This document shows, piece by piece, positions 9,852-51,895 of a stretch of 64,000 nt of DNA. The stretch's first letter is position 1; every line of letters starts with the position of its first letter. The translations under genes and the position numbers were made by a program. The stretch comes from Candidatus Acetothermia bacterium (GTDB lineage Bacteria > Bipolaricaulota > Bipolaricaulia > RBG-16-55-9 > JANLFV01): the NCBI GenBank assembly GCA_024653345.1, contig JANLFV010000002.1, forward strand, positions 4,830 to 68,829. Direction: 5' to 3'. The notes under the pieces were generated by a model that ran no database searches, was not told the origin of the DNA, and saw nothing but the letters and a program-made list of their open reading frames with translations.

Positions 9852-9867
9852 CTCCTCCTTTGCGAGC

Positions 9868-10566
9868 CTATCCGCCGAGGTAAGCGCAGCGGACATGCTC
9901 ATCTTCGCAGAACTCCTTGACCGTCCCCTCCTTGACGATCCGGCCCGTCTCCAACAGGTAGAGCCGGCTGGAGTGCTCCAGGGCAAAGACCACATTCTGC
10001 TCGGCCAAGAGGATGGTCATCCCGTTCTTGGTGATCTTCTCGAGGGCCTGGGAGATGGCCCGCCTGACGATCGGGGCCAGGCCGAGGGTCGGCTCGTCGA
10101 GCAAGAGCAGGCGCGGGCGGCCCATGAGCGCCCGCCCGATCGCCAGCATCTGCTGCTCCCCGCCGGAGAGGGTCCGAGCGAGCTGCCGCTTCCGCTCCTT
10201 GAGGAAGGGGAAGAGGCCGTAGACCATCGCTAGGTCCTCTTGCACACTCTTGTCCCGATGGCGGCGATAGGCTCCCAGCATCAGGTTGTCGTAGACGGAC
10301 ATGAAGGGGAAGAGGTGGCGCTCCTCGGGGCAGTGGATGATCCCGCGGGCCACGGTCGCCGCGGGATCTTGGGGCAGCTCCTCCCCGGCGAAGAGGACCT
10401 GGCCGTGATACTCCTTCAGCCCCGAGATGGAGCGGAAGAGAGTGGTCTTCCCCGCCCCGTTCGAGCCGATCACCGCGACGAACTCCCCCTCCTCGACTTC
10501 GAGGGAGACGCCGCGCAGGACATGGGCCTTGCTGTAGTAGACATCCAGGCCTCTGACCTCAAGCAT
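9868..10566 (-). CDS. livF: branched-chain amino acid ABC transporter ATP-binding protein LivF-like
   Basis: 232 aa with Walker A GSNGAGKTT, LSGGEQQ signature and Walker B LLLDEP. Confidence 0.85.
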   Translation of the reverse strand: MLEVRGLDVYYSKAHVLRGVSLEVEEGEFVAVIGSNGAGKTTLFRSISGLKEYHGQVLFAGEELPQDPAATVARGIIHCPEERHLFPFMSVYDNLMLGAYRRHRDKSVQEDLAMVYGLFPFLKERKRQLARTLSGGEQQMLAIGRALMGRPRLLLLDEPTLGLAPIVRRAISQALEKITKNGMTILLAEQNVVFALEHSSRLYLLETGRIVKEGTVKEFCEDEHVRCAYLGG

Positions 10567-26482: not shown

Positions 26483-26920
26483 ATGCGGAAATTGCTCTGG
26501 CTCCTGGTCGTTCCGGCTCTTCTCAGCTCGGGCGCAGCGGCCCAGCCGCGGAATTTCTCCGAGGGCCGAGGGCTGGGGATCGGCCTCCAAGCCCCTTGTG
26601 CGATCAGCATCCGCTACTGGATGAGCGACGAGCGCGGCCTGGAGGGGAACTTCCTCCTTCTGACCGATAACGTCTGCCTGGCGGGCAAGGCCCTCTTCCG
26701 CCTCGGGGATACGAGCAACTTCGATCTCTATGCCCTTGCGGGGGCATGGTATCTCAGCCTCTATGACGAGAGCAGGCTCCAGGTCTTCGCGCTGGCGGGG
26801 ATGGAGCTATCCATCTCCCGTAATCTGGCAATCAATCTGGAGTTCGGCGAGTCGCTCGGCTTCGATCAACGGTATGAGTTCCTGATCAGCACTGGGATCC
26901 ACTTCTACTTCCAGAGATGA
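26483..26920 (+). CDS. small secreted outer-membrane beta-barrel-like protein (paralog A)
   Basis: 145 aa with a signal peptide, alternating hydrophobic beta-strand patterning and a C-terminal aromatic signature HFYFQR. Confidence 0.55.
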   Translation: MRKLLWLLVVPALLSSGAAAQPRNFSEGRGLGIGLQAPCAISIRYWMSDERGLEGNFLLLTDNVCLAGKALFRLGDTSNFDLYALAGAWYLSLYDESRLQVFALAGMELSISRNLAINLEFGESLGFDQRYEFLISTGIHFYFQR

Positions 26921-27042
26921 GGGAGTGTGACCGTGATCACCTCGGTCCGGGACGGAGTTCAGCGGCCCCCTCAACGGGGGTCCTTCAATGGCCTGAGGGA
27001 GTGGCTACGCTGGAAGTGCCGATTCTGTAAAGGAGGTCCTGC

Positions 27043-27522
27043 ATGAGGAAGCTTCTGTTCTTGGTCCTGGCGCTCGTCGCGATCGCCGCGGCATTCTCGG
27101 TCTTGGGATTTGCCCAGGAGGATTACTCCGCCGGCCGGCTCTTTGGGATCGGGGCCGAGGTGACCGCCCCCATCCGGAGCCCGGTCGATCCCGCTTGGCC
27201 GAACATGTTCCCCGCCACTGGCCTCTCCACCAGGCTCTGGCTCGCTGATCTCTTCGGGATCGACGTGAACTTCTGGGTCTTCCCCGGCTTCCCCTCGTTT
27301 GCCATCCGGACGCTCTTCAAGTTCTTCAACACCTCGATCGTCGACATCTACACCGGTCTGGGAATGGCGTTCTTCAACGGAGCGACCCCCTTCCAGCTGG
27401 TGAGCGGGATGGAGGTCTCAATCTCCCGGAACCTGGCGCTGAACTTCGAGGTCGGGGTCTTCGGCTTCGGGGCGACGAGCGGCGGGGTGAGTGCGGGCCT
27501 GGGGGCCCACTTCTACTTCTGA
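27043..27522 (+). CDS. small secreted outer-membrane beta-barrel-like protein (paralog B)
   Basis: 159 aa with a signal peptide; shares EVSISRNLALNFE and a C-terminal HFYF with paralog A. Confidence 0.55.
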   Translation: MRKLLFLVLALVAIAAAFSVLGFAQEDYSAGRLFGIGAEVTAPIRSPVDPAWPNMFPATGLSTRLWLADLFGIDVNFWVFPGFPSFAIRTLFKFFNTSIVDIYTGLGMAFFNGATPFQLVSGMEVSISRNLALNFEVGVFGFGATSGGVSAGLGAHFYF

Positions 27523-27634
27523 TCCGCTGAGCCGCTCGCGATCAAGAGCGCGGTAGTTGCTGCCTGAGCCACCTCTTCCCTCGGGGGGTATTGACAGCCT
27601 CCCCCGCGGGGTGTATCTTTGCTCCGGTGAGAGG

Positions 27635-27892
27635 ATGAGGGAAGGGGAGGCTTTGCTCTTCTGCCCCCGTTGCGGGGGCCGGCGCCTCCGTCTGCGGAGC
27701 GAGGTCTACGCTTGCTACGACGCTCGGATCGTCGAGGGGCGGGTGAGCTGGCAGAGCAATCGGCTCGTCCTGGTCAATCCCGATCGGGTCACTCCCAAAG
27801 CGACGATCATCTGCCTCGACTGCCTGGCCCGCTTTGAGGAGTTCGAGCTCCTGGAGAACGGCGAGATAATCCTGAGGAATCGCGGGGGGTGA
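27635..27892 (+). CDS. small zinc-ribbon protein
   Basis: 85 aa with CPRCGG...CLDC. Start trimmed to MREGE at 27635. Confidence 0.45.
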   Translation: MREGEALLFCPRCGGRRLRLRSEVYACYDARIVEGRVSWQSNRLVLVNPDRVTPKATIICLDCLARFEEFELLENGEIILRNRGG

Positions 27893-27896
27893 GAGG

Positions 27897-28658
27897 ATGC
27901 GCGGAAGATGGGCTTGGGCGCTGCTGCTCGGCCTCCTGGTGCTGGCAAGCTTCACGGTCTTGGCCCAGGAGGAGCCGAGCCAGGCCGAACTGGAGGCGGT
28001 GCTGAAGCAGACCGGTGCCGATGAGGTGATCGTGAAGAAGCTCGGCTGGGTCCTCATCGGCAAGGGCGTGATCGACGATCAGCTACTGGCCTTCGGCGTG
28101 ACGCTGAAGATCGCTGCCGAGCTCGAGGAATACCCGGGGCTGAAAGTCGATCGCTGGCTCAAGGAGAAGCTGGGCCGGGAGCCGTCCAAGGCCGAGCTGA
28201 ACTGGATGGACATGGTCAAGGGGAGCCTGCAGACCAGCTACCCCGACCTCTACGGCTCGCTGCGGGAGGCCCTCAAGAACCTCCGGACCAAGCCGACAGT
28301 CCAGCCCGGCTCGGATCTCAGCTCGGTCCTCACCTCGCTGCAGACCCTCAATCAGCGGCTGACCAGCCTCGAGGACCGCGTGACCGCGCTCACCCAGCAG
28401 AGGGACGCGTCGGCGGAGGAGTTGGCAGCCCTGAGGCAGGAGTTCGAGAGCCTCAAGGAGAGCCTGCCCGACCCGGCAGCGCTCAGCGGCCTCTCCGCCA
28501 ATTTGCCGCAGATGGCGAGCCTCCAGGACGAGGTGAGCCGGCTCAATCGCTCCCAGAGCAGCCAGCGGGGCTTGACGATCTTCCTGATCATCCTCGTGTT
28601 TCTGCTCTTGACCTGGCTGGTCTTCTTGAGGGCGCGGGAGATTTCGCGAGTGCTCTGA
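27897..28658 (+). CDS. secreted coiled-coil protein with C-terminal membrane anchor
   Basis: 253 aa with a signal peptide, a long Leu/Gln/Ser-rich coiled coil and a C-terminal transmembrane helix LTIFLIILVFLLLTWLVFL. Confidence 0.5.
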   Translation: MRGRWAWALLLGLLVLASFTVLAQEEPSQAELEAVLKQTGADEVIVKKLGWVLIGKGVIDDQLLAFGVTLKIAAELEEYPGLKVDRWLKEKLGREPSKAELNWMDMVKGSLQTSYPDLYGSLREALKNLRTKPTVQPGSDLSSVLTSLQTLNQRLTSLEDRVTALTQQRDASAEELAALRQEFESLKESLPDPAALSGLSANLPQMASLQDEVSRLNRSQSSQRGLTIFLIILVFLLLTWLVFLRAREISRVL

Positions 28659-28659
28659 G

Positions 28660-29889
28660 TCAAGGCTCCGCGAAGACCTTCAGCACATCCAGCTCCCTCA
28701 CCTCGAGGGAGAGCCCGAGGAGGGCGGCAAGGCTCGGAGTGGTCCGCCCGCTGTCGCCGGAGAGGAGTTCCTTCACATAGAGTCCGCCATCGCAGCGGAC
28801 CTCGATGAGCGCCTCCCGTTCGCTCAAGAGCTCCCCGCGGGCTTCCCAGACCCTCCTGCTCCTCACGAGGTCGGCCCGCCGATGGGCGACCCGCCGAGGG
28901 GTCCGCTGGGCGATCGGCCCGACCAGGTCACGCAGGGCAGCTTCGAGTTCTTCAGCGCTCACCGGGCGGTCGAACTCCACCCTGGCCCGATAGAACTTCT
29001 CGGCCCTCCCGCTCTTCAGCCGCTCAATCGCTCCCCGTGTCACGAACCTCAGGTCACCGACTTCCACCTTGCTGGCGGCTCGCTCGTTGATCTGGTCCGT
29101 CAAAGCCTGGAGATCGAGGCTGCGAAGCCGCGGCTCGCGGACCTCGATGATGAACGGCCGGCCTTCGCCGAGCATCCGAGCGTCAATGTCCTCTCGCCCT
29201 GAGCCGTGGAAGGCCGAGCTGCTCCCCCGCGCGGCCTCCAGAACCGGCGGGCTGATCAGCTCCTCGACGCTCTCGGGATACTGCTTCCCCGTGAAGTCGC
29301 ACTTCTCGCAGCCTCGCCCGCGGCAGGCTCGGCAGGGCCAGTGGGTCTGAGGGATGCCCCGCACGAGCTTCTTGTAGCGGCCGTAGATGAAGAGGGGCGC
29401 GATCTTGAGCTCCACCCGGTCCCATACAAGATCGAGGAGGAGGGCTACCTCGGGGTTGTGGAGGTCGACCGCCGCGCCGCGGGCTTGCAAGGCCGCCTCG
29501 AGCCGCTTCCCCACCTCGCGGTTGAGGTCGTGCTTCAAGAGCTCTGCTCCTTCAAGCCCGTGTCTTCGCTGGAGCTCGGCCTCTTGCTCCTCGAGGAACT
29601 CCGGCCAGTGGCTGCCTACGACGAAGCTCCTGAACTCGAGCCCCTCGAGCTGCGCGAGGGCGCGGCTAGACCACTGGTCAACCTTCAGGAGGTGGCCGAG
29701 GCAGAGCTGGCAATAGCGCGGCTCCTCATAGGGCCGATCGTCCTCCATGGCGAGCATGATGCGGATAGCCCGGCCCCGGTCGCGGTTGCTCAGGCCATGG
29801 CTCCGTCGCCCGAATTGCCGCCCCAGACAGGAGTCGCACAGCTCGCGCTCGGCGAGGATCTCCCTGGCTAGGTCGAGGATCTTCGACAT
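28660..29889 (-). CDS. tRNA pseudouridine(54/55) synthase Pus10 homolog
   Basis: 409 aa with N-terminal CxxC pairs (CDSCLGRQFG, CQLCLGHL). The catalytic motif GREDIDARMLGEGRPF, the motif RTPRRVAHRRADLVRSRRV and GGLYVKELLSGDSGRTTPS match Pus10 signatures as I recall them. Confidence 0.65.
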   Translation of the reverse strand: MSKILDLAREILAERELCDSCLGRQFGRRSHGLSNRDRGRAIRIMLAMEDDRPYEEPRYCQLCLGHLLKVDQWSSRALAQLEGLEFRSFVVGSHWPEFLEEQEAELQRRHGLEGAELLKHDLNREVGKRLEAALQARGAAVDLHNPEVALLLDLVWDRVELKIAPLFIYGRYKKLVRGIPQTHWPCRACRGRGCEKCDFTGKQYPESVEELISPPVLEAARGSSSAFHGSGREDIDARMLGEGRPFIIEVREPRLRSLDLQALTDQINERAASKVEVGDLRFVTRGAIERLKSGRAEKFYRARVEFDRPVSAEELEAALRDLVGPIAQRTPRRVAHRRADLVRSRRVWEARGELLSEREALIEVRCDGGLYVKELLSGDSGRTTPSLAALLGLSLEVRELDVLKVFAEP

Positions 29890-30038
29890 CAGACGGGATT
29901 ATACAGCTCCGCTTACCCGGGTGCAGCCGGCAGGCCGCTGCGGACCGCACCTCGACAGGGGAAGTCCGGGCCGCGCCGCTCGAGTGTTACCCGTGCCACA
30001 TTAGCGTTCGGCTACCGGGAGTTATAATCCCGACTAAC

Positions 30039-33357: not shown

Positions 33358-33403
33358 GACGCCGATCTTCCCGGGTAGCTCAACCGGCAGAGCGGGTGGC
33401 TGT

Positions 33404-33949
33404 AGGGAGGCATGGAGCAGGTGGCTGACAGGCGAGCATACGCTGATCGGCGCGGATACTTGATCGAGGCCGTGCGGAGCCGCCGGAAGAGGATTCGCAG
33501 GATGGCTCTGCAGTATGAGGGTGCTAGATGTAGCATCTGCGGCTACGATCGGTGCGAAGGAGCGCTGGAGTTTCACCAACTAGAGGCCACAAGTAAGGAC
33601 TTTGGGATCTCCGACAAGGGGTATACCCGGAGTTGGAGAAAGGTCCGAGAGGAGCTAGATAGGTGCATACTCCTATGTGCCAATTGCCATCGCGAAGTCC
33701 ATGCCGGAATGCAGCTTCCACGGGAAACCGTGGTCGAAGAATCGGGTGAATTCAGGGGAGCCTACCCCGAAAGGAAGGGTAACCCTGAGCGAAGCCTGCC
33801 GAAGGGACTTGGAGTAGGCAGGAACGTGCAGAGACTAGAGGCTGAGGATCCCACCAATAATGCCTCGCGAGCGCCCGACACCCTCTCCCTGGTCCTCCAG
33901 GGCGGGTGAAGAGATAGTCCGAGCCCAGCAGAAATGCTGGGGGAACTCG
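33404..33949 (+). mobile_element. group I intron (about 546 nt) carrying an HNH homing endonuclease ORF
   Basis: R-like element GCAGAGACTAGA at 33828-33839 and S-like element AGATAGTCC at 33912-33920 form P7 (GACTA/TAGTC). A P8 hairpin CCCTGGtcctCCAGGG lies at 33887-33902. A P9 hairpin CCCAGCAgaaaTGCTGGG lies at 33924-33941. The terminal G is at 33949, and the 5' exon ends in U. Confidence 0.65.
33412..33909 (+). CDS. HNH homing endonuclease (intron-encoded)
   Basis: 165 aa with CSICGYD...EFHQLE...LLCANCHREVH, the HNH motif. The start follows a GGGAGG ribosome-binding site 8 nt after the 5' splice site. The 3' third of the ORF overlaps the ribozyme core. Confidence 0.8.
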   Translation: MEQVADRRAYADRRGYLIEAVRSRRKRIRRMALQYEGARCSICGYDRCEGALEFHQLEATSKDFGISDKGYTRSWRKVREELDRCILLCANCHREVHAGMQLPRETVVEESGEFRGAYPERKGNPERSLPKGLGVGRNVQRLEAEDPTNNASRAPDTLSLVLQGG

Positions 33950-34056
33950 TAACCACTAGGTTGCAGGTTCGAGTCCTGCCCCGGGAGCCAGGTCAGTATT
34001 GGTTCAACCCTTTGTTGTGTCGGGAGTATTCCCCTCTCGAACATCTTTGGCCCACT

Positions 34057-34499: not shown

Positions 34500-35948
34500 C
34501 TACCACCACCTGGTGATCACGACCTTCTTCTCGGTGAAGAAGTCGATCGCGTCCCGCCCCTGGCCGTGGAGGTCGCCGAAGAAGGAGTCCTTTCGCCCGC
34601 CGAAGGGGAAGAAAGCCATCGGGGCGACGATCCCCACATTGATCCCGATGTTCCCGCACTTGACGCGATACTTGAACTCCCGCGCGGCGCTCCCGCTGGT
34701 GGTGAAGATCGAGGAGGCATTGCCGTAGGGGTTGGCATGGATGATCTCGATCGCCTCATCCAGGTCCGCCACTCTGATGATGCTCGCCACTGGCCCGAAG
34801 ATCTCCTCCCGCGCGATCGCCATCTCCGGCCGGACGCGGTCGAAGACCGTCGGGCCGATGAAGTAGCCCTCCTCGTGGCCCGCGACCCTGATGCTCCTTC
34901 CGTCAAGGAGGAGCCTCGCCCCCTCCTGCAATCCTCGGTCGATGTAGCCTAGGACTCGCTCTTTGTGCTTCTTGGAGATCACCGGCCCCATCTGGACTGT
35001 CTCGTCCAGGGGGTCCCCGACCTTCAGCTTGCCCGCCGCGGCAGTGAACCTCTCCTTTAGGGGCTCGTATACTTCGCCGACCGGCAGGAGGACCGAGCCG
35101 GAGAGGCAGCGCTCCCCAGCGCAGCCGAAGAAGGAGGTGATCAGTGGGGGGATCGTCCGATCGAGATCCGCATCGGGCATGACGACGATGAAGTTCTTCG
35201 CCCCGGCTTGGCACTGGACCCGCTTTCCGTGCTCCGCGGCCTTTCTGTAAATGTATCGCGCGACCGGAGTCGAGGTAACTGAGGAGATCCCGACCACATC
35301 GGGGCTCTCCAGGAGGTGGTCCACAACGCCCTTGGCTCCGTTCACGAGGTTGAGCACCCCCGGAGGGAGATCGAGCTCGTCGACCAGCTGGAAGATCTTG
35401 TTCTGAACGATGGGCACCTGCTCGGAGGGCTTGACGATATAGGTGTTGCCCGCGGCGATGGCATAGGGGGCAAACCACCAGGGGACCATCGCGGGGAAGT
35501 TGAACGGCGGGATCACGGCGAAGACCCCCAGGGGCTGCCGGACGACCTCCTCGTCGATCCCGCGGGCGATGTCCTCCAGGCTATAGCCCATCATCAGGGA
35601 GGGGATTCCCGTGGCGACCTCAACATTCTCGATCAGGCGGCGCATCTCACCGCGGGCCTCGTCCAGGGTCTTCCCCTCCTCAGAGGAGATCGTCCGGGCA
35701 AGCGCCTCGAAATGATCCTCCAGGAGGCCCTTGAGGCGGAAGAGATACTGGATCCTGGTCGTGGGCGGGGTCTCCCGCCACTCGGGGAAAGCCTCACAGG
35801 CCGCGCGGATCGCCGCCTCGACCTCTTCGTCGGTGGAAAGAGGGACCTGAGCGAGCACCTCTTCCGTGGCGGGATTGCGGACCTCGAGCGATTCTTGTGA
35901 CTTCGACTCCCGCCACTCCCCTCCGATGTAGTTCTTCAACCTATCCAT
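34500..35948 (-). CDS. mmsA: CoA-acylating methylmalonate/malonate-semialdehyde dehydrogenase
   Basis: 482 aa aldehyde dehydrogenase containing the motif FNFPAMVPWWFAPYAIAAGNTYIVKPSEQ, characteristic of this dehydrogenase family. Confidence 0.8.
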   Translation of the reverse strand: MDRLKNYIGGEWRESKSQESLEVRNPATEEVLAQVPLSTDEEVEAAIRAACEAFPEWRETPPTTRIQYLFRLKGLLEDHFEALARTISSEEGKTLDEARGEMRRLIENVEVATGIPSLMMGYSLEDIARGIDEEVVRQPLGVFAVIPPFNFPAMVPWWFAPYAIAAGNTYIVKPSEQVPIVQNKIFQLVDELDLPPGVLNLVNGAKGVVDHLLESPDVVGISSVTSTPVARYIYRKAAEHGKRVQCQAGAKNFIVVMPDADLDRTIPPLITSFFGCAGERCLSGSVLLPVGEVYEPLKERFTAAAGKLKVGDPLDETVQMGPVISKKHKERVLGYIDRGLQEGARLLLDGRSIRVAGHEEGYFIGPTVFDRVRPEMAIAREEIFGPVASIIRVADLDEAIEIIHANPYGNASSIFTTSGSAAREFKYRVKCGNIGINVGIVAPMAFFPFGGRKDSFFGDLHGQGRDAIDFFTEKKVVITRWW

Positions 35949-35960
35949 GAGCGGACCTCC

Positions 35961-37307
35961 TTAGTCTGCCTCATGATCGGCCATCTCCAAGACTTCGTCC
36001 AAGGCCTGGAGCCCTCTGTCGATCTCCGCCTCGGTGATGATGAGCGGCGGGGCGATCACGAAGTGGTTATACCAGCTCGATAGATAGACGCCGCGCTTCA
36101 GCATCTCCGCGGAGAGCCTCTCGGTCAAGAGCGGCTTCAGGGCGGCCTTGTCGGCCTTGGTGCTGAACGGCTCCTTCGTCTCCCTGTTCTTGACCAGCTC
36201 GACAGCCCAGAAGTGGCCGAGCCCCCGGACATCGCCGATGCTCTTGTGCTTGGTGAAGAGCCGGCGGAGCCCCTGGGCGAGGTGCTCGCTGACGCGCTGG
36301 GGTAGGCCCGTCGCGAAGAGCTTCTTATACTCCGCAATGGCCGCGGGGATGGCCGCGAGCGTGAGCGGGTGCATGCTATAAGTGTGGCCATGGGCAAAGA
36401 AGCGCTCCTCGAAGTGGCCGCGGATCTTGGCTGTCGTCGCGGTCACCCCGACGGGGGCGTAGGCACCAGTGCAGCCCTTGGCGGTGGTCAAGATATCGGG
36501 CTTGACATCCCAATGGTCGACGGCGAACCGCTTGCCCGTCCGATACCAGCCGCTCATCACCTCGTCCGCGACGAGCAAGACGCCATTCTCATCCGCGATC
36601 TGCCTCAGTCTAGGGAGATACTCCGGCGGCGGGACGATGATCCCGTTCGTCCCGACGACCGGCTCGATGAAGATCGCGGCAACATTCCCCTCCTCCTTGA
36701 TCATGTAGTCAACGTATTCGGCGCACTGGATCTGGCAGCCGGGATGCTCGAGCCCGAAGGGGCAGCGGTAGCAGTAGGCGTCAGGGGCGAAGATCACGCC
36801 GGGGAGCTTGTTCATCGGCTCGGCGAACCACCGCCGGAAGTCCCCGGTGAGGGCGATGCTCCCCCCAGTCGAGCCGTGGTAGGAGCGGTATCTGGAGATG
36901 ATCTTATACTTCCCTTGGGGCGCGAGATACTGGCGGACGATCTTCAGGGCCGCCTCGTTCGCCTCCGTCCCCGAGGAGGAGAAGAAGAACTGGTCCAGTC
37001 CCTCAGGCATGGCCTCGAGGAGGGCCTCGACCGCGCGGGCCTTCGCCTCGCAGACGAAGCCCGGGGCCACATAGGGGAGCCGCTCGGCCTGCTCCTTGAT
37101 CGCTGCGATCAGCGCCCTGTTCCCGTGGCCGAGGTTCGAGCACATCAGCTGTGAAGAGAAATCGAGGTATGCCCTGCCCTGATCGTCGTAGAAGCAGGCC
37201 CCCTCGGCCTTGGCGATGAAGAGCGGCCTCTTCCAGGCCTTCTGGGCCCGCCAACTGCCGTAGCTGTGGCTTGTGATCAGCTCCACTAGCTTCTCTATAT
37301 CGGTCAT
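35961..37307 (-). CDS. class III aminotransferase (omega-amino acid / beta-alanine--pyruvate transaminase-like)
   Basis: 448 aa PLP fold type I, class III, with the lysine in TTAKG. Confidence 0.85.
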   Translation of the reverse strand: MTDIEKLVELITSHSYGSWRAQKAWKRPLFIAKAEGACFYDDQGRAYLDFSSQLMCSNLGHGNRALIAAIKEQAERLPYVAPGFVCEAKARAVEALLEAMPEGLDQFFFSSSGTEANEAALKIVRQYLAPQGKYKIISRYRSYHGSTGGSIALTGDFRRWFAEPMNKLPGVIFAPDAYCYRCPFGLEHPGCQIQCAEYVDYMIKEEGNVAAIFIEPVVGTNGIIVPPPEYLPRLRQIADENGVLLVADEVMSGWYRTGKRFAVDHWDVKPDILTTAKGCTGAYAPVGVTATTAKIRGHFEERFFAHGHTYSMHPLTLAAIPAAIAEYKKLFATGLPQRVSEHLAQGLRRLFTKHKSIGDVRGLGHFWAVELVKNRETKEPFSTKADKAALKPLLTERLSAEMLKRGVYLSSWYNHFVIAPPLIITEAEIDRGLQALDEVLEMADHEAD

Positions 37308-37394
37308 TTTGGACCGGCTCCTTCTCGATAGCCCTCCGGCGAGATGCTAGCCTCCTGTAGATCCACGGTCCGGGCGGGAGATTCTACCCCGATT

Positions 37395-37426
37395 CCCGGA
37401 GGGCGTCAACTGACGCCCTCTCCGGG
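37395..37426. promoter_or_regulatory. palindromic candidate operator in the divergent intergenic region
   Basis: CCCGGAG-GGCGTCA-ac-TGACGCCC-TCTCCGGG. The core is a perfect 8-bp inverted repeat with a 2-nt spacer, and the extended arms carry one 2-nt bulge. It sits between the aminotransferase and the beta-ureidopropionase genes. Confidence 0.4.
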
Positions 37427-37475
37427 AGGAAAGGCGCTGCCGGCCTGCTCCCTGATCGTAGTGACCCCAGGGCGT

Positions 37476-37505
37476 TTGTTCAGGGCAAGATGGCTGTGCT
37501 ATACT
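37476..37505 (+). promoter_or_regulatory. promoter (TTGTTC-N18-TGTGCTATACT) for the pyrimidine catabolic genes
   Basis: The same extended -10 sequence TGTGCTATACT as the tRNA promoter at 33347-33357. Confidence 0.35.
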
Positions 37506-37536
37506 CGGCCGAAGATTGGGAGGAGGTAGAACGGCG

Positions 37537-38379
37537 ATGAGGATCGTCCGCGGCGCACTGCTCCAGGCGACCTGGACCGGTGACAAGGAGAGCATGATCG
37601 AGAAGCACCTCGACTACCTGGCCCGCGCGGCCAAAGAGGGGGCCGAAGTCATGTGCTTCCAGGAGCTCTTCTACAGCCCCTACTTCTGCCAGGTGCAGAA
37701 TCCGGAGTTCTACAGCTGGGCTGAGCCGATCCCCGAGGGGCCGACGACGAGGCTGATGCAAGAAGCCGCGAAGGAGCACGGGATGGTCCTGATCGCCCCG
37801 ATGTTCGAGGAGGAGGCGCCGGGGATCTATTACAACACCGCCGCGGTCATCGACGCTGACGGAGCCTACCTCGGGAAGTATCGCAAGACTCATATCCCTC
37901 ATCTCACGGGCTTCTGGGAGAAGTTCTACTTCCGCCCGGGGAATCTGGGCTATCCCGTATTCGACACGGCCGTGGGCAAGGTCGGGGTCTACATCTGCTA
38001 CGACCGCCACTTCCCCGAAGGGGCAAGGGTCTTGGGCCTGAACGGGGCCGAGATCGTCTTCATCCCCTCGGCCACCTCACGCGGGCTATCGCAGCATCTC
38101 TGGCGGATCGAACAGACGAGCCACGCGATCGCCAACGGCTACTTCGTCGGGACGATCAACCGCGTCGGCAAGGAAGAGGAATTCGGGCCGAACGACTACT
38201 ACGGGCAGAGCTACTTCTGCACCCCGCGGGGGGAGTTCGTGGGCGAGGTCGGGGATGCTTACAAGGAGGAGCTGATCGTCCGGGACCTCGATCTCGACCT
38301 GATCCGCGAGGTCCGGAACACCTGGCAGTTCTACCGCGATCGCCGGCCGGAGACCTATGGCCAGATCGTGGCGCCGTAG
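37537..38379 (+). CDS. beta-ureidopropionase / N-carbamoyl-beta-alanine amidohydrolase (nitrilase superfamily)
   Basis: Carbon-nitrogen hydrolase fold with Glu-Lys-Cys catalytic residues (FQELF, KTH, CYDRHFPE). The ATG at 37537 follows a GGGAGGAGG ribosome-binding site. Confidence 0.8.
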   Translation: MRIVRGALLQATWTGDKESMIEKHLDYLARAAKEGAEVMCFQELFYSPYFCQVQNPEFYSWAEPIPEGPTTRLMQEAAKEHGMVLIAPMFEEEAPGIYYNTAAVIDADGAYLGKYRKTHIPHLTGFWEKFYFRPGNLGYPVFDTAVGKVGVYICYDRHFPEGARVLGLNGAEIVFIPSATSRGLSQHLWRIEQTSHAIANGYFVGTINRVGKEEEFGPNDYYGQSYFCTPRGEFVGEVGDAYKEELIVRDLDLDLIREVRNTWQFYRDRRPETYGQIVAP

Positions 38380-38437
38380 GCTCGGCTCCGGCGCGGCAGG
38401 CACTCTAGCCTAGGTCATTTGAACAGGAGGTGGGGAG

Positions 38438-39745
38438 ATGGCAGATCTGAGCATCGACTTCGCGGGCGTCAAGGCTCCAAATCCCTTCTGGGTCTCTTCC
38501 GGCCCGCCCTCGAACACCCTCTACCAGCTCAACCGGGCGTTCGAGGCCGGCTGGGGCGGGTTCGTCTGGAAGACCCTCAGTGACCCGCTCCTCAATGTCA
38601 CCAACCGCTATGGAGGTATCCACTACGGCCGGACGAGGGCAATCGGGATCAACAACATCGAGCTGGTGAGCGACCGGCCACGGGAGGAGAACCTGCGTGA
38701 GATCAGGGAGGCCAAGCGCCGCTGGCCCGATCGGGCGCTGTTCGTCTCGGCGATGGTCCCGAGCAAGCGCGAGGCCTGGCACAGGATCGTCGAGGAGATC
38801 CAGGAGACCGGCGCGGACGGGATCGAGCTGAACTTCGGCTGCCCCCATGGGATGCCGGAGCGGGGGATGGGCGCGGCCGTCGGCCAGGTCCCGGAGTATT
38901 GCGAGATGATCACCTCCTGGGCCAAGGAGGTGGCGAAGGTCCCGCTGATGGTCAAGCTCACCCCGAATGTGACGAACATCGTCGAGCCGGCCCGCGCGGC
39001 CGTCAAGGGGGGCGCGAGCGCGCTCTCCATGATCAACACGGTCTACAGCATCATGGGCGTCGACCTCGACACTCTGGAGATCCAGCCGAGCGTCCGCGGG
39101 AAGGGCACCCCCGGCGGCTACGCCGGCCCCGCGGTCAAGCCGATCGGGCTCTACATGGTCTCGAAGGTCGCTCGAGAGAACCTCGGCGTCCCGATCTCCG
39201 GGATCGGGGGGATCGAGTCCTGGCGGGATGCGGCGGAATACATCCTCCTCGGCGCCACCAGCGTCCAGGTCTGCACCGGGATCATGAAGTATGGCTTCCA
39301 GATCGTGAAGGGGATGATCTCCGGCCTGTCGCGCTGGATGGACGAGAAGGGGTTCGCCAGGATCAGCGACTTCTCCGGCCTGGCCGCGAGGAAAATCGCG
39401 CCCTTCGGGGAGCTCGACATCATGTATCGGACCGTCGCGGAGATCGACTACTCCAGGTGCATCTACTGCCGAAGATGCTACACCGCCTGCGAGGACGGCC
39501 TCCATCAGGCGATCGAGCTGGTCCAGAAGAACGGTCGGGCCGTGCCGCGCATCAAGGAGGAGGAGTGCGTCGGCTGCCGCATGTGCAGCCTGATCTGCCC
39601 GGCCCAGTGCATCAGGATGGTCGAGCGAGACCGGGGCTTCCCCAGCCAGAGCTGGTCCGAGATCGTGGCCGCGAACCCCGGGATAGACAGCGACTGGAAG
39701 GTGATGCGCCGCTGGCGGAAGGAGCACAACTGGCGCACAAAATGA
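38438..39745 (+). CDS. preA: dihydropyrimidine dehydrogenase PreA-like subunit (DHODH-like FMN domain plus two 4Fe-4S clusters)
   Basis: 435 aa with a dihydroorotate-dehydrogenase-like TIM barrel and C-terminal CIYCRRCYTAC and CVGCRMCSLICP cluster motifs. Confidence 0.85.
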   Translation: MADLSIDFAGVKAPNPFWVSSGPPSNTLYQLNRAFEAGWGGFVWKTLSDPLLNVTNRYGGIHYGRTRAIGINNIELVSDRPREENLREIREAKRRWPDRALFVSAMVPSKREAWHRIVEEIQETGADGIELNFGCPHGMPERGMGAAVGQVPEYCEMITSWAKEVAKVPLMVKLTPNVTNIVEPARAAVKGGASALSMINTVYSIMGVDLDTLEIQPSVRGKGTPGGYAGPAVKPIGLYMVSKVARENLGVPISGIGGIESWRDAAEYILLGATSVQVCTGIMKYGFQIVKGMISGLSRWMDEKGFARISDFSGLAARKIAPFGELDIMYRTVAEIDYSRCIYCRRCYTACEDGLHQAIELVQKNGRAVPRIKEEECVGCRMCSLICPAQCIRMVERDRGFPSQSWSEIVAANPGIDSDWKVMRRWRKEHNWRTK

Positions 39746-39755
39746 GGGGGCGCTG

Positions 39756-41129
39756 ATGGACACAGTGATCAAGGGCGGGCGGATCGTCACGGCCACCGAG
39801 ACCTATGAGGCCGACATCGGCATCGAGAAGGGCCAGATCGCCCTCCTCGGGCGGAATCTCGAGGGGGACGAGACCATCGATGCCAAGGGGATGTTCGTCC
39901 TCCCCGGCGGGATCGATCCCCACACCCATCTGGAATTGCCCTTCATGGGCACCGTCTCCGCGGACGACTTCCGGACCGGGACGATCGCCGCGGCCTGCGG
40001 CGGGACGACCACGATCATCGACTTCGCCATCCAGGGGAAGGGCCAGACGCTCCGCGAGGCTCTGGAGATCTGGCTGAAGAAGGCCGAAGGGAAGGCGTCC
40101 GTAGACTACGGCTTCCATGTGGCGATCGGGGCGATGGACGACGCGCGGATGGCCGAGATGGGCGAGCTGGTCAGGGATGGGGTCTCGAGCTTCAAGATCT
40201 TCATGGCTTACAAGGGGACATTCATGGTCGATGACGAGACCCTCTTCCGCGCGCTCCTCCGGGCCAGGGAGGTTGGGGCGCTGATCACCGTCCATGCAGA
40301 GAACGGCGATGTGCTCAACTACTTGATCAACAAGCATGTGGCCGAGGGCAAGAAGGAGCCGATCTGGCACGCCCTGAGCCATCCCCCGGAGGCCGAGGCC
40401 GAGGCCACGCATCGGGCGATCGTGCTGGCCGGTCTGGCCGGTGCGCCGATCTACTTCGTCCACATGAGCGCGGCCGAGGCGCTCGAGGCGCTCAAGGCCG
40501 GACGGGCTAAGGGGTTCAAGGTCTTCGGCGAGACCTGCCCGCAGTATCTCCTCTTCTCGATTGAGAAATACAGCGAGCCGGACTTCGAGGGTGCCAAGTA
40601 TGTCATGTCGCCTCCGCTCCGGGAGAAGGGGAACCAGGAGGCGCTCTGGCAGGGGCTGGCCGGCGGCGACCTCCAGGCGGTCGGGACCGACCACTGCCCG
40701 TTCAACTTCGCCGGGCAGAAGGAGATGGGGAGAGACAACTTTGCCGCGATCCCCAACGGGATGCCGGGGATCGAGACCAGGCTCCCGCTGATTTACCACT
40801 TCGGGGTGAACGGCGGCCGGTTCTCGATCAACCGCTTTGTGGAGCTGGTCTCGACCGGTCCGGCGCGGCTCTTCGGCCTCTTGCCGCGGAAGGGGACGAT
40901 CGCCATCGGTGCTGACGCCGATCTCGTCATCTGGGACCCGAACAAGAAGCATAAGCTGACCAGGGAAAACCTGCACATGAATGTGGACTACAGCCCATAC
41001 GAGGACATCACCGTAAAGGGCTATCCGGCCCTAGTTATGCAGCGGGGCGAGGTCATCGTGCGGGAGAATCAGTTTGTCGGCCAAGTCGGCGCGGGGGAGT
41101 TTCTAAGGCGCGCTCCCGTCCGGTTGTGA
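39756..41129 (+). CDS. dihydropyrimidinase (D-hydantoinase)
   Basis: 457 aa amidohydrolase with GGIDPHTH and the carboxylated-Lys region of cyclic amidohydrolases. Confidence 0.9.
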   Translation: MDTVIKGGRIVTATETYEADIGIEKGQIALLGRNLEGDETIDAKGMFVLPGGIDPHTHLELPFMGTVSADDFRTGTIAAACGGTTTIIDFAIQGKGQTLREALEIWLKKAEGKASVDYGFHVAIGAMDDARMAEMGELVRDGVSSFKIFMAYKGTFMVDDETLFRALLRAREVGALITVHAENGDVLNYLINKHVAEGKKEPIWHALSHPPEAEAEATHRAIVLAGLAGAPIYFVHMSAAEALEALKAGRAKGFKVFGETCPQYLLFSIEKYSEPDFEGAKYVMSPPLREKGNQEALWQGLAGGDLQAVGTDHCPFNFAGQKEMGRDNFAAIPNGMPGIETRLPLIYHFGVNGGRFSINRFVELVSTGPARLFGLLPRKGTIAIGADADLVIWDPNKKHKLTRENLHMNVDYSPYEDITVKGYPALVMQRGEVIVRENQFVGQVGAGEFLRRAPVRL

Positions 41130-41156: not shown

Positions 41157-43892
41157 CTAGGTGGGCCACCGGTGCAACAACTCCCTCATCTCACAGTAGA
41201 CCTCGATCTTGCTCACCTGTCTCGCCCAGGGCTGCCTAAGCAGGGCGTCAAACGAGAAACCCTCTGCCGGCACGGTGCGATACCAGTATTTCTCCGTTCC
41301 ATTCCATTGATAACCGTGATCCCTTAGCTCGTCCTTTACACGGTAAGCACCGAATACTCTGATCTCAAGCCGGGGCTGGTCCAGCGATGGGACCGCCGGA
41401 AGCTCATCCCATGAGAGTGAAGTGAGACTCATGTGTTTGCGGATGTCGTCAAGATATGGGCTCTCTCTAAGGCTCTCGGTCACCAGTGCAAGCGAGTCCT
41501 TGGCTCTCGTGACCGCGACGTAGAAGAGTCGCCTCTCTTCGTCCTCGATGGTTTCGATGCTATCACCGAAAACTCGCAGAAACACCCAGTTGGGATGAAT
41601 AAGTGGGTAGCTCCGCTCGACTGCGTCCAACACGATAACCGCCTGCTTCTCTCCCCCTTTATACTTGTGAGCAGTTGAGATACCTACCCGGCCACGGTCT
41701 TCCTCGGGTAAGAAGGAGCGGAGGTGTTCCAAAAACCGCTGGAGATCGTCTGGTTTTCCACTGCCGCGTTCGGCGTAGTTGACATACCAAGGCGCGCCGT
41801 TACGCCTAGACAGGATTACCACATCCTGGCCCTGATCAAGAAAGTATCGAAGCAACTATAGAATTGCTGGTGTAATCTCGTCGCCCTTGTGACGATCCTC
41901 CTCGGATGGTGACGGCTTGAACTCGTCAAGCTTGCAGAGCCGCACCCATCCTTCCTCCTTACGGCAAGCCTCCGCTTCCACTCCTCGGCCGAACATGATG
42001 GCGTTCCCTAATTCCACTATTGATCTGGCGGAGCGGTGGTTGATGGGAAGGACGCATTGCGATGTATCTCGGAAGTAGCGGTCGAAGTCCCTGAAGAAGC
42101 GGAGCTCGGATCCTGCAAAAGCATTGATTGCCTGCCAGTCGTCTCCGACACAGAAGAATCGAATTCTCTGATTGACCGAACGAATGGCGTCAACGAGCTC
42201 GAAGAACATCTGTGAGAAGTCCTGGAACTCGTCGATCATCATGAACCTCAGGTTGGCTAGATTGCCGCGTTCTCTGCCTCTATCTCGCACGAACTGGGTC
42301 TGGCCACTGCGGATCAGTGACACGGCACGCCACATGAGGCCGTCGAAGTCTTCCTTCTTTCTCGCAGCAAGTAGCTGCAGATAGCCTCGGTAAACTGAGA
42401 TGGCAACATCCAGGAACAACTCCTCGGCGCTGGAACAAGGACTATGCCGAGCAACCATTCTCTCCAGCTCTTCGGGGGACAGGTTGCGCTTCCTGCACCG
42501 CCCGATGAAGTTCGTCATCGCTTCCGTGAAGCGGTCGATTGCTCGATGCTTGATACGGTCCCAGATCTCCTTATCTGATAGTTGCCGACAGGGGACGCCG
42601 GCCTGCTCCAGCTTCTGCAAGAGATGATGAACGAATCCATCCACACCTCTCTTTGCTAAATCCTGCGACGAGAACTCGATGAGGGTCCATCCCTGGCGCT
42701 GTGCCCAGAACTCTCGCTTCTGCTGCGCCATCTCGTCATAATCGGGATTGCCCTTCACCCCAAAGCACTCAATGACCACGCCGCCCCTGGGTGGCTTGAG
42801 TATCGTGAAATCCGGCCGGTAGTTGACCCCGTTCCAGCGGAAGTTGCGCTCGTAGCGGTAGTCGACCCCGTTTTCGAGGAGCGCGTTGGCAATGACTTTC
42901 TCTCCGAAAGACTTCCCATGCTCGCCCCTGAGCGTCTCGCGCGGGAGCGAGCGGCGGTAGGCCAGGAGTTCGTCCATGGCCAGATGGAAGCCGCCGGCCT
43001 CGATCCGCTCCCAGTCCTCGCGGAAGTGAGCAAGCATCAGGTCGCGAATGCGGCTTCCCCACTTCTTGGACCTCACGTGCTGGTCGATGACTTCTTGCGC
43101 TTCGCGGCTCAGATTGAACCGATCGGCTGAGGGCTGATCATACAAGAGTTCCTCTTCAGGATGGACCAAGGCATAGGCCAGTTGGTGGAAATCCATCACG
43201 TGGGGCAAGTCATCGCCGATTGCCGCGCGAAGCCGCTTCCTCATCTCATCCGCTGCGCTTCTGTTGAACGCCAGGAGCAGCAGCTCGCCTGGGGACACCC
43301 CGCAGTGCTTCTGCAGGAAGATCGCTCGCGTGACGAGAGTCCTGGTCTTGCCACTGCCCGCCCGTGCCACGACTAGGATATCGCCTTCAGAGGCCGCAAT
43401 CGCAGCAGCTTGTTCGGGATCAAGGTCCACGTGGATCTCACGAGAGGCCCAGTCCTGGACAAACCTAGCCTTGAGATCGTAGTATTCTTCATCGCTGATC
43501 AACTGCCTATCAGGATCACCAGTGAAGACTTTGTCCGCGGATAGGAAATCCGAATCAAAGGCGTCTCGAAGCCTTGCGCGGAACGCTCTCCTGCGCTCTT
43601 GCTCCTCCAGTTCGCGCTGGCGCTCAGCCTCGCGTTGCTTGTGTTCCTTCCAGGCCACGCGTTCTGAGAATAGGATGGGTAATCTCGACCACTCTTCAGG
43701 GGACAGATTCTGCTTCAACTGTGCAACGATCTCCTTCTCACTCATCCTACAACGCAAGGGTGTGTCACCAAGTTGTGCGGAGCCATCAACGATGCTCGGA
43801 ATGAGGACAGTCAAGTAGTATTCCTTATAGAGGTCCCAACGGCCCCAGTAATGGATCAACTCATCTATGAGCTCCAGCGCAGTGTATTCCAA
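41157..43892 (-). pseudogene. UvrD-like SF1 helicase with inserted DUF559/Vsr-like PD-(D/E)xK nuclease module, interrupted by one in-frame TAG
   Basis: The N-terminal ORF (TTG start at 43892) carries Walker A AGSGKTRT, DEFQD and GDDWQAINAFAGS, with the nuclease-like insert RPDFTIL...VVIECFG...GWTLIEF. The C-terminal ORF carries ISTAHKYKGGE and YVAVTRAKDSL. The two ORFs are in the same frame, separated only by TAG at 41856-41858. The region is lower in GC than its surroundings. Confidence 0.7.
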
Positions 43893-51832: not shown

Positions 51833-51861
51833 TTGCGATCACTTGAAACACAGCGTATAAT
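51833..51861 (+). promoter_or_regulatory. promoter (TTGCGA-N17-TATAAT) upstream of the recombinase gene
   Basis: TTGCGA at 51833-51838, a 17-nt spacer, then TATAAT at 51856-51861. Confidence 0.35.
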
Positions 51862-51895
51862 TTGGGCGAATTTGTTACATCGACCGGAGGGCGGG

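What the first reader, a model, noticed from the sequence alone, without database searches (positions are those of the whole stretch)
28660..29889. Archaeal/eukaryotic-type tRNA pseudouridine synthase Pus10 in a bacterial chromosome
The 409-aa protein has:
- a paired-CxxC zinc-ribbon N-terminus;
- the catalytic motif GREDIDxRMLGxGRPF;
- the segment RTPRRVAHRRADLVRSRRV;
- GGLYVKELLSGDSGRTTPS near the C-terminus.
These match my recollection of Pus10, which makes pseudouridine 54/55 in archaea and eukaryotes. Bacteria normally use TruB instead, so this is probably a horizontal acquisition and raises the question of its tRNA target here.

It sits next to a cluster of unusual small proteins and not far from the intron-containing tRNA.
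Basis: partly seen in the sequence, partly recalled or inferred. Interest (0 to 1): 0.6.

Follow-up and report, generated by a model that had tools for sequence, protein, structure and literature searches.

The report
Archaeal-type Pus10 in a bacterial phylum
This bacterium (candidate phylum Bipolaricaulota/Acetothermia) carries an intact copy of Pus10, the tRNA T-loop pseudouridine synthase that reviews say is absent from Bacteria; the gene is old and widespread in the phylum and may stand in for the usual bacterial enzyme TruB.

Summary
ORF 28660-29889 (-) encodes a 409-aa protein that matches the Pus10 equivalog model end to end (TIGR01213, 512.7 bits against a cut-off of 200). An AlphaFold model (pLDDT 93) superposes on human PUS10 (TM 0.81). 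All catalytic and zinc-binding residues are present.

The host is bacterial: a 212-kb Bipolaricaulota contig with the dcw cluster, MutL and sigma-70. The gene is not a recent insertion. Its GC matches the genome, and synteny is conserved in a relative whose Pus10 is 73% identical. Pus10 occurs across Bipolaricaulota, including the pure culture J31. The nearest archaeal relatives are Halobacteriota; the donor is unresolved.

All 29 Bipolaricaulota sequences keep the forefinger loop and His-Arg hook that archaeal Pus10 needs for Psi54 as well as Psi55. A second bacterial lineage (cultured Halanaerobiales) has lost both, like the Psi55-only Pyrococcus enzyme.

truB is absent from the window and from its canonical place after infB-rbfA in 7 of 7 Bipolaricaulota genomes. 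Whole-genome absence could not be tested.

The protein is already auto-annotated as Pus10 in NCBI, but no paper found discusses bacterial Pus10. Verdict: a real, database-known, literature-unrecognised new member of a known family. Interest is moderate.

The parts
28660..29889 (-). pus10 coding sequence (409 aa plus stop codon)
   Evidence: ORF listing; TIGR01213 512.7 bits, profile positions 3-401 of 402; identical protein P0001 is in NCBI as 'tRNA pseudouridine(54/55) synthase Pus10 [Candidatus Acetothermia bacterium]'.
29701..29838 (-). N-terminal zinc site: C18, C21, C60, C63
   Evidence: Positions. All four Cys are invariant in 55 homologs. They correspond to the four Zn-ligand Cys of human PUS10 and MjPus10 C31/C34/C106/C109 (PMC3753934).
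29431..29673 (-). Archaeal-type THUMP domain (residues 73-153)
   Evidence: Pfam PF22023 Pus10_THUMP_arc, 72.3 bits, profile positions 1-78 of 78.
28675..29391 (-). Pseudouridine synthase catalytic domain (residues 167-405)
   Evidence: Pfam PF21238 Pus10_C, 226.4 bits; aligned to the human PUS10 catalytic domain at E = 1.5e-35; Foldseek TM 0.81 to 2V9K.
29266..29334 (-). Forefinger loop, C186-V208 (CRACRGRGCEKCDFTGKQYPESV). It equals MjPus10 ffl1 (C227-R231) plus ffl2 (C238-V249), the positive determinants of Psi54 activity.
   Evidence: An exact offset of 41 residues from the published Mj numbering, with no indel (PMC3753934). A 23-residue, four-Cys loop is present in 29 of 29 bacterial sequences of the main set. 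It is deleted in Thermococcus-type and Halanaerobiales Pus10.
29182..29196 (-). Catalytic motif R232-E-D234-I-D236. D234 is the catalytic Asp (Mj D275, the Asp of human 'GRED').
   Evidence: R232 and D234 are invariant and D236 is at least 90% conserved.
28990..28992 (-). Y300, the conserved active-site Tyr (Mj Y339)
   Evidence: Invariant in 55 sequences. The mapping is by near-offset and alignment.
28879..28884 (-). Thumb-loop 'hook' H336-R337 (Mj H376-R377)
   Evidence: At least 90% conserved. HR in 29 of 29 bacterial sequences of the main set, but replaced in most Halanaerobiales Pus10.
28771..28776 (-). V372-K373 (Mj I412-K413). [quoted passage not shown]
   Evidence: K373 is invariant. 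The core pattern R-D-D-Y-[VI]-K-L holds in all groups.
28690..28692 (-). L400 (Mj L440), essential for both activities in MjPus10
   Evidence: Invariant; PMC3753934.
29898..29903 (-). Perfect TATAAT hexamer ending 8 nt upstream of the ATG, with no Shine-Dalgarno between; a possible -10 box of a leaderless transcript (inference)
   Evidence: Read directly from the sequence. The consensus scan, which also requires a -35 hexamer, found nothing.

Best explanation
The gene encodes a functional archaeal-type Pus10, a stand-alone pseudouridine synthase made of a zinc ribbon, a THUMP domain and a catalytic domain.

Shown: family membership, the fold, conservation of every catalytic and zinc-binding residue, the bacterial host, a phylum-wide distribution, and stable chromosomal inheritance in the window's lineage.

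Inferred mechanism, from studied Pus10 enzymes: the THUMP/zinc domain docks on the tRNA acceptor end, the forefinger and thumb loops pinch the T-arm, and D234 isomerises uridine in the T-loop.

Inferred history: an ancestor of Bipolaricaulota acquired the gene from a Halobacteriota-like archaeon, in one or a few ancient transfers, and it has been inherited vertically since.

Inferred role: it supplies the near-universal Psi55 that TruB makes in other bacteria. Because it keeps the complete forefinger loop and the His-Arg hook, it probably also converts U54 to Psi54, which would give an archaeal-style Psi-Psi-C T-loop.
For: Family: TIGR01213 scores 512.7 bits against a cut-off of 200, over the full length; Pfam Pus10_C plus Pus10_THUMP_arc. 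The AF2 model has pLDDT 93.2. Its top PDB match is human PUS10 2V9K at E = 4.7e-33 and TM 0.81; the next family, TruA, reaches only 1e-10 and TM 0.41.

Residues: C18/C21/C60/C63, R232, D234, Y300, K373 and L400 are invariant; D236, H336 and R337 are at least 90% conserved in 55 homologs. They map onto the residues mutated in MjPus10.

Bacterial host: FtsI, MutL, RsmH, FtsL and sigma-70 on a 211,924-bp contig that was assembled independently by NCBI and JGI.

Not recent: gene GC is 0.67 against 0.64 for the window, with GC3 0.85. The whole neighbourhood is conserved in L095, whose Pus10 is 73% identical.

Phylum-wide: dozens of Bipolaricaulota, Acetothermia and Fraserbacteria MAGs, and the pure culture J31, carry it.

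Phylogeny: the main bacterial clade is monophyletic in 57-64% of NJ bootstraps and sits among Methanomicrobiales, Methanosarcinales and ANME-1.

TruB: there is none in the window at HMM sensitivity, none in 497 kb of Bipolaricaulota loci, and none after infB-DUF503-rbfA in 7 of 7 genomes. In L085 and L089, pus10 itself lies a few kb upstream of infB.

Psi54 competence: the 23-residue four-Cys forefinger loop and the HR hook are kept in 29 of 29 bacterial sequences. Both are lost in Thermococcus-type and in Halanaerobiales Pus10, so they are not retained by default.

Substrate: both tRNAs in the window have G53-U54-U55-C56-R57-A58 T-loops.
Against: There is no biochemical or modification-mapping data for any bacterial Pus10.

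Genome-wide absence of truB, trmA and trmFO was not tested.

The infB operon is generally fragmented in this phylum. nusA is not upstream of infB in the loci read, and rbfA is missing at that site in L087 and L096. An empty slot after rbfA is therefore weak evidence that truB is lost.

The mapping of Y339, H376/R377, I412/K413 and L440 rests on a near-constant offset and on family alignments, not on an alignment with the MjPus10 sequence itself.

The NJ tree does not recover monophyly of all bacterial sequences (3 of 200 bootstraps), so the number of transfers and the donor remain open.

Human PUS10 coexists with TRUB1 and acts mainly at U54, so coexistence with TruB has a precedent (PMC7749629, PMC7912444).
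Confidence: 0.72

Rival explanations
1. Pus10 coexists with an ordinary TruB encoded elsewhere in the genome. It is then a specialist, as in mammals: it makes Psi54 only, or modifies a subset of tRNAs or another T-loop-like RNA such as tmRNA or rRNA.
For: Human PUS10 and TRUB1 coexist and split the work (PMC7749629; PMC7912444). Whole-genome absence of truB is untested. The infB operon is fragmented in this phylum, so truB could simply have moved.
Against: No truB was found anywhere in the sampled DNA, including the canonical site in 7 of 7 genomes. Psi54 has never been reported in bacterial tRNA (PMC6380271). That statement comes from well-studied phyla only.
Confidence: 0.25
2. The gene is archaeal contamination or a chimeric assembly in a metagenome bin, not part of a bacterial chromosome.
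For: The source is a MAG, and the closest cultured homologs are in methanogens.
Against: The gene lies in the middle of a 212-kb contig with bacterial genes on both sides. The same sequence was assembled independently by NCBI and JGI. The same gene order is found in a different MAG. Pus10 is present in the closed genome of the pure culture J31. GC and GC3 match the host.
Confidence: 0.01
3. It is a recently acquired or decaying passenger gene with no role in the host.
For: In Fraserbacteria RBG_16_55_9 the copy is split into two pieces and was not called as a gene.
Against: The reading frame is intact and all catalytic residues are invariant across sequences that are only about 50% identical to one another. 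Composition is host-like and synteny is conserved. The split copy may be an assembly error.
Confidence: 0.02

Closest known systems
[quoted passage not shown] 2013, PMC3753934)
   Same: The architecture is the same: zinc ribbon, THUMP domain and catalytic domain. The catalytic core is the same: R-x-D-x-D, Tyr, hydrophobic-Lys and Leu. The four-Cys forefinger loop (ffl1 plus ffl2) has identical spacing to the catalytic Asp, and the His-Arg thumb hook is present.
   Different: The host is a bacterium, so the tRNAs, partner enzymes and any TrmY-type follow-up methylation are unknown. No activity has been measured. The Mj sequence itself was not available for a direct alignment.
Pus10 of Methanosarcinales and Methanomicrobiales (e.g. 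Methanosarcina hadiensis, P0077)
   Same: These are the closest archaeal sequences: 45-55% identical over the full length, with the same loops and core residues.
   Different: They are about as distant from the window protein as other Bipolaricaulota Pus10s are (median 54% within the main bacterial clade, 46% between bacteria and archaea). They are therefore not a recent donor.
Human PUS10 (PDB 2V9K)
   Same: It is the best structural match (TM 0.81, E = 4.7e-33). The catalytic domain aligns at E = 1.5e-35, with GRED(V/I)D, HRR and the GxYxKE motif shared.
   Different: Sequence identity is only 24%. Human PUS10 has a longer, eukaryote-type N-terminal region, lacks ffl2 (PMC3753934), coexists with TRUB1/2 and acts on selected tRNAs.
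Pyrococcus furiosus/Thermococcus Pus10 (Psi55-only class) and the Pus10 of Halanaerobiales bacteria (Halobacteroides halobius, Natroniella, Ca. Frackibacter)
   Same: They belong to the same family and share the catalytic core. The Halanaerobiales proteins are the only other bacterial Pus10s found here.
   Different: They lack the four-Cys forefinger loop (a 14-17-residue deletion) and mostly lack the His-Arg hook. The window protein keeps both. Identity to the window protein is only 33-39%.
Bacterial TruB (tRNA Psi55 synthase)
   Same: It has the presumed same substrate, U55 of the T-loop, and the same Psi-synthase superfamily fold (1K8W and 1R3E appear at E of about 1e-8).
   Different: It is a different family: there is no TruB_N or PUA domain. 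The best TruB/Cbf5-family HMM score is 28.6 bits against a cut-off of 242, and TM to TruB is about 0.32.

Membership tests
Pus10 (TIGR01213 / COG1258) | Full-length match to the curated equivalog HMM above its trusted cut-off | tested here: met
   512.7 bits against a cut-off of 200; residues 8-405 on profile positions 3-401 of 402; E = 6.4e-154.
Pus10 (TIGR01213 / COG1258) | Two-part architecture: N-terminal zinc-ribbon/THUMP accessory domain plus C-terminal pseudouridine synthase domain | tested here: met
   Pfam Pus10_THUMP_arc (residues 73-153) and Pus10_C (residues 167-405), both well above their gathering scores. The AF2 model is confident over both parts.
Pus10 (TIGR01213 / COG1258) | Four N-terminal Cys that coordinate zinc | tested here: met
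   C18, C21, C60 and C63 are present and invariant in 55 homologs. Metal binding itself was not tested.
Pus10 (TIGR01213 / COG1258) | Catalytic Asp within R-x-D-x-D, plus conserved Tyr, hydrophobic-Lys and Leu | tested here: met
   R232, D234, D236, Y300, V372-K373 and L400. The Asp aligns with the Asp of human 'GRED'.
Pus10 (TIGR01213 / COG1258) | Three-dimensional fold of solved Pus10 | tested here: met
   Foldseek against 2V9K: E = 4.7e-33, TM 0.81 over 481 columns. The next family scores 1e-10 and TM 0.41.
Pus10 (TIGR01213 / COG1258) | Formation of Psi55 and/or Psi54 in tRNA | not testable with these tools
   This needs an enzyme assay or modification mapping. Only the sequence determinants could be checked.
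Dual-specificity (MjPus10-like, Psi54 plus Psi55) subclass | Complete forefinger loop (ffl1 plus ffl2) and His-Arg thumb hook | tested here: met
   C186-V208 and H336-R337 are present with Mj-like spacing. The feature discriminates within the family, because it is absent in Thermococcus-type and Halanaerobiales Pus10. The functional consequence is inferred from PMC3753934.
TruB/Cbf5 family (rival assignment) | Match to TruB/Cbf5 models above their cut-offs | tested here: not met
   The best score is 28.6 bits against a cut-off of 242, covering residues 296-377 only. There is no Pfam TruB_N hit at E <= 1.
   No Pfam or NCBIfam hit to any of them at E <= 1.
Non-orthologous displacement of TruB by Pus10 | Absence of truB from the same genome | tested here: inconclusive
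   truB is absent from the 64-kb window, from 497 kb of sampled Bipolaricaulota DNA, and from the site after infB-rbfA in 7 of 7 genomes. No whole genome could be scanned.
Non-orthologous displacement of TruB by Pus10 | Absence of a U54 methyltransferase (TrmA/TrmFO), which would leave U54 free for Pus10 | tested here: inconclusive
   There are no TrmA or MnmG/TrmFO-like hits in the sampled loci.

The most novel reading that the evidence does not exclude
Bipolaricaulota as a phylum have lost TruB and the U54 methyltransferase, and rely on an anciently acquired archaeal Pus10 to make both Psi54 and Psi55. Their tRNAs would then carry an archaeal-style Psi-Psi-C T-loop. This would be the first such case in Bacteria, and a cross-domain replacement of one of the most conserved bacterial RNA-modification enzymes. 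In parallel, Halanaerobiales would have trimmed their Pus10 to a Psi55-only form.
Probability: 0.35. Interest if true: 0.72.

Novelty: new member of a known kind. Interest (0 to 1): 0.52.

Why it matters
Reviews of tRNA T-loop modification state that Pus10 is found in Archaea and Eukarya 'but not in Bacteria', and that Psi54 is absent from bacterial tRNA (PMC7912444, PMC6380271). This window, together with the survey it prompted, shows an intact Pus10 throughout one bacterial phylum and in cultured members of a second. The two lineages carry opposite versions of the loops that set Psi54 versus Psi55 specificity. That corrects the accepted distribution. It also offers a natural experiment on how specificity tracks the host's other T-loop enzymes, and it raises a specific, testable possibility: that a near-universal bacterial enzyme, TruB (as I recall, a GTDB bac120 marker, TIGR00431), was replaced by an archaeal analogue. 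Cultures now exist for direct tests: strain J31 and Halobacteroides halobius DSM 5150. Against this, the family is well understood, the protein is already correctly named by automatic annotation, and no new chemistry is implied.

Tried and rejected
1. Direct search for truB: tblastn with E. coli TruB, RbfA and RpsO against the window and 80 loci, against L082-L089, and with PNPase, RibF, TrmA and MnmG against 497 kb of bacterial loci. No hits. The sample is too small to prove absence.

2. Supplements of four Bipolaricaulota genome papers were searched for truB, pseudouridine, K03177, K07583 and Pus10. Nothing was found, or no supplements were held.

3. Seven literature searches for bacterial Pus10. 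No paper was found. The Pus10 evolution paper by Fitzek et al. 2018 is not held.

4. I tried to identify the MjPus10 sequence among the representatives by its published residue numbers. There was no exact match (best 8 of 17), so the mapping rests on the offset and the family alignment.

5. The 397-aa ORF after rbfA in Ca. Bipolaricaulis anaerobius (L088) was checked as a possible divergent TruB. It has no Pfam hit and no similarity to TruB.

6. Loci labelled 'Thermotogae' were tested as a possible further phylum with Pus10. This was rejected: flank synteny and 60-68% GC show they are Bipolaricaulota.

7. I looked for a conserved functional neighbour of pus10 across the phylum. None exists: the window's neighbours are absent next to pus10 in distant lineages, and other lineages have unrelated housekeeping neighbours.

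8. The sigma-70 promoter and terminator scan around the gene found nothing.

9. A look-up of the window thiolase (8700-9995) found no record, probably because of a different start-codon call.

10. A final homology search with a TruB query was considered and rejected. The tool lists only the 120 best hits, so no non-Bipolaricaulota TruB query could have brought a Bipolaricaulota TruB into view.

Full report
OBSERVATION.

IDENTITY.
- NCBIfam's Pus10 equivalog model TIGR01213 matches from end to end: 512.7 bits against a cut-off of 200, E = 6.4e-154.
- Pfam finds Pus10_THUMP_arc (residues 73-153, 72 bits) and Pus10_C (residues 167-405, 226 bits).
- The only TruB/Cbf5-family signal is 28.6 bits against a cut-off of 242. 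TruD and RluA models do not hit at all.
- The only close solved structure by sequence is human PUS10 (2V9K, E = 1.5e-35). The alignment places the query's GREDID on human GREDVD.
- An AlphaFold2 model built on 55 homologs is confident (mean pLDDT 93.2, pTM 0.85). Its best PDB match is 2V9K at E = 4.7e-33 and TM 0.81 over the whole chain. The next family, TruA, reaches only 1e-10 and TM 0.41.

RESIDUES. Joardar et al. 2013 (PMC3753934) define the residues that matter in M. jannaschii Pus10: the catalytic D275 with R273 and D277, then Y339, I412, K413 and L440. They also define two forefinger-loop segments (ffl1, C227-R231; ffl2, C238-V249) and a thumb-loop hook (H376-R377) that are needed for Psi54 but largely dispensable for Psi55.
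- Subtracting 41 from the Mj numbers lands exactly on C186, R190, C197, V208, R232, D234 and D236.
- It lands within one or two residues of Y300, H336-R337, V372-K373 and L400.
- In an alignment of 55 homologs, C18, C21, C60, C63, R232, D234, Y300, K373 and L400 are invariant. D236, H336, R337 and the loop cysteines are at least 90% conserved.
- The mapping beyond D236 is by offset and family alignment, because the Mj sequence itself could not be retrieved.

HOST. The window is bacterial. It encodes a PBP2/FtsI-type transpeptidase, MutL, RsmH, FtsL, sigma-70 and DprA, and a group I intron in a tRNA.
- The identical protein is in NCBI as 'MAG: tRNA pseudouridine(54/55) synthase Pus10 [Candidatus Acetothermia bacterium]'.
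- The source contig is GCA_029907235.1 JARYMH010000001.1, 211,924 bp. The same sequence was assembled independently in JGI metagenome 3300038743.
- Gene GC is 0.67 and GC3 is 0.85, against a window mean of 0.64.
- Contamination or chimerism can be set aside.

DISTRIBUTION AND HISTORY. Homologs 50-82% identical occur in many Bipolaricaulota, Acetothermia, Bipolaricaulia and Fraserbacteria MAGs.
- They also occur in strain J31, the first pure culture of the phylum. Its complete genome is 1,887,171 bp (P0116; bioRxiv 10.1101/2025.11.21.689855).
- Contigs labelled 'uncultured Thermotogae' are mislabelled Bipolaricaulota: their flanks are syntenic with Bipolaricaulota loci and their GC is 60-68%.
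- In a relative whose Pus10 is 73% identical (L095), the whole neighbourhood is conserved: DUF4015, pus10, four small ORFs, DUF5693, PS_pyruv_trans, rsmH, ftsL, ftsI.
- In more distant lineages the neighbours differ and are ordinary bacterial housekeeping genes.
- A neighbour-joining tree of 167 sequences over 400 columns places 25 labelled bacterial sequences and one unlabelled representative in one clade (57-64% bootstrap).
- A second, divergent Bipolaricaulota group (P0241, P0247, P0257) has 67% support.
- Both groups lie among Methanomicrobiales, Methanosarcinales, ANME-1 and Halobacteria sequences. Monophyly of all bacterial sequences is not recovered.
- Median identity is 54% within the main bacterial clade and 46% between bacteria and the labelled archaea.
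- The simplest reading is one or a few ancient transfers from a Halobacteriota-like donor near the base of the phylum, followed by vertical descent. The method cannot resolve more.

A SECOND BACTERIAL LINEAGE. Naming the family representatives with short forefinger loops revealed two things.
- The short-loop class includes Thermococcus, the clade of the Psi55-only Pyrococcus enzyme. This validates the loop mapping.
- One short-loop cluster is Candidatus Frackibacter, a member of Bacillota, order Halanaerobiales.
- A search from that protein found Pus10 in cultured Halobacteroidaceae: Halobacteroides halobius DSM 5150, Halanaerocella petrolearia, three Natroniella species and Halanaerobacter jeridensis. 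Their nearest relatives are Nanohaloarchaea and a further Bipolaricaulota group.
- All eight Halanaerobiales sequences have the four-Cys loop deleted, and five of the eight have replaced both hook residues.
- Every Bipolaricaulota sequence examined keeps both features: 29 of 29, plus four more. The features are therefore dispensable in some bacterial hosts but are maintained in this phylum.

THE truB QUESTION. E. coli TruB finds nothing in the window or in any fetched locus. Pfam annotation of every substantial ORF in the window shows no TruB, TrmA, TrmFO or TrmY domain.
- In L085, pus10 lies 2.5 kb upstream of infB-DUF503-rbfA. In many bacteria this cluster continues into truB (established knowledge; for example the E. 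coli locus).
- I collected Bipolaricaulota IF-2 orthologs and read seven infB loci from different lineages. One of them (L086) comes from the same metagenome as the window and has matching GC.
- None of the seven has truB downstream.
- This is suggestive, not decisive. The operon is fragmented in this phylum, and whole genomes could not be scanned.

MECHANISM, MOST LIKELY.
- Shown: an intact, conserved, host-adapted Pus10.
- Inferred from the family: the THUMP/zinc module binds the acceptor end, the forefinger and thumb loops grip the T-arm, and D234 catalyses isomerisation of T-loop uridine. Both tRNAs in the window present G53-U54-U55-C56-R57-A58.
- Inferred role: the provider of Psi55, probably instead of TruB (about 0.55), and probably also of Psi54 (about 0.45).
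- Main rival: coexistence with TruB and a specialist role, as in mammals.

LITERATURE AND NOVELTY. Reviews state that Pus10 is absent from Bacteria (PMC7912444; PMC6380271). No paper in the library mentions Pus10 together with Bipolaricaulota or Acetothermia. A July 2026 compendium of bacterial RNA modifications (PMC13602947) contains no occurrence of 'Pus10'. Automatic annotation, however, already names these proteins correctly. The finding is therefore a new member of a known family in an unexpected domain, known to databases but not to the literature searched. Interest is moderate, and would rise if truB proves absent or Psi54 is found.

Noticed in passing
P0475, P0487-P0492, P0498, P0499 (found; not in the window): Cultured Halanaerobiales (Bacillota) encode Pus10: Halobacteroides halobius DSM 5150, Halanaerocella, Natroniella, Halanaerobacter and Ca. 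Frackibacter. In all of them the four-Cys forefinger loop is deleted, and in most the His-Arg hook is replaced. This is the signature of the Psi55-only Pyrococcus enzyme. It is a second, independent bacterial Pus10 lineage, whose nearest relatives are Nanohaloarchaea and a further group of Bipolaricaulota.
   Followed up: partly
window 33369-33990: ARAGORN misses a tRNA gene here. The exons are 33369-33403 and 33950-33990, separated by a 546-nt group I intron (Rfam RF00028, 72.9 bits). Only one junction obeys the group I rules (exon ends in U, intron ends in G), and it gives a canonical 76-nt tRNA-Asn(GUU) with anticodon loop CUGUUAA. The intron carries a 165-aa ORF (33412-33909) with CxxC and CANCHREVH (HNH-like) motifs but no Pfam hit.
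   Followed up: partly
window 26483-28658: Four ORFs next to pus10 have no significant Pfam match and are conserved in the relative L095. ORF 27897-28658 is a 253-aa protein with an N-terminal signal or TM segment, a coiled coil and a C-terminal TM segment. ORF 27557-27892 is a small protein with two CxxC pairs. ORFs 27043-27522 and 26483-26920 are paralogs (33% identity, E = 2e-16) with signal peptides and C-terminal ...HFYF, which resembles small outer-membrane beta-barrel proteins. That would fit the diderm, toga-like envelope reported for strain J31.
   Followed up: partly
window 29890-29903: A perfect TATAAT ends 8 nt before the pus10 start codon, with no Shine-Dalgarno sequence in between. 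This suggests a leaderless mRNA. The intergenic region shared with the divergent DUF4015 gene is only 149 bp.
   Followed up: no
L085 10001-16331; L089 1135-12543: In two genomes of the Fraserbacteria/RBG-16-55-9-like lineage, pus10 lies a few kb upstream of infB-DUF503-rbfA. In the Fraserbacteria record the pus10 copy is split into two tblastn pieces (residues 337-359 are missing) and was not called as a gene. This is either a frameshift, an assembly error or a pseudogene.
   Followed up: partly
L085-L089, L096, L097: The infB neighbourhood of Bipolaricaulota is rearranged compared with the common bacterial nusA-infB-rbfA-truB-rpsO-pnp order. nusA is not upstream, a convergent DUF501 gene usually follows rbfA, and rbfA itself is missing at that site in L087 and L096.
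   Followed up: partly
window 34500-41129: An apparently complete reductive pyrimidine (uracil/thymine) catabolism cluster. It comprises methylmalonate-semialdehyde dehydrogenase (34500-35948), a class III aminotransferase (35961-37307), a CN-hydrolase / beta-ureidopropionase-like gene (37537-38379), a dihydropyrimidine-dehydrogenase-like DHO_dh+4Fe-4S gene (38438-39745) and an amidohydrolase / dihydropyrimidinase-like gene (39756-41129).
   Followed up: no
window 41157-43892 and 51833-52474: A region of lower GC (0.57-0.60) holds a UvrD-type helicase split into a 678-aa ORF and a separate 232-aa UvrD_C ORF. A short (about 180-213 aa) phage-integrase-family ORF lies further on. These may be remnants of a mobile element.
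   Followed up: no
L084 1-9312: In a contig carrying the same Pus10 as strain J31, the gene lies next to a complete BREX-type defence cluster: BrxA, BrxB, BrxC/PglY, a PglX-like methyltransferase and BrxL.
   Followed up: no
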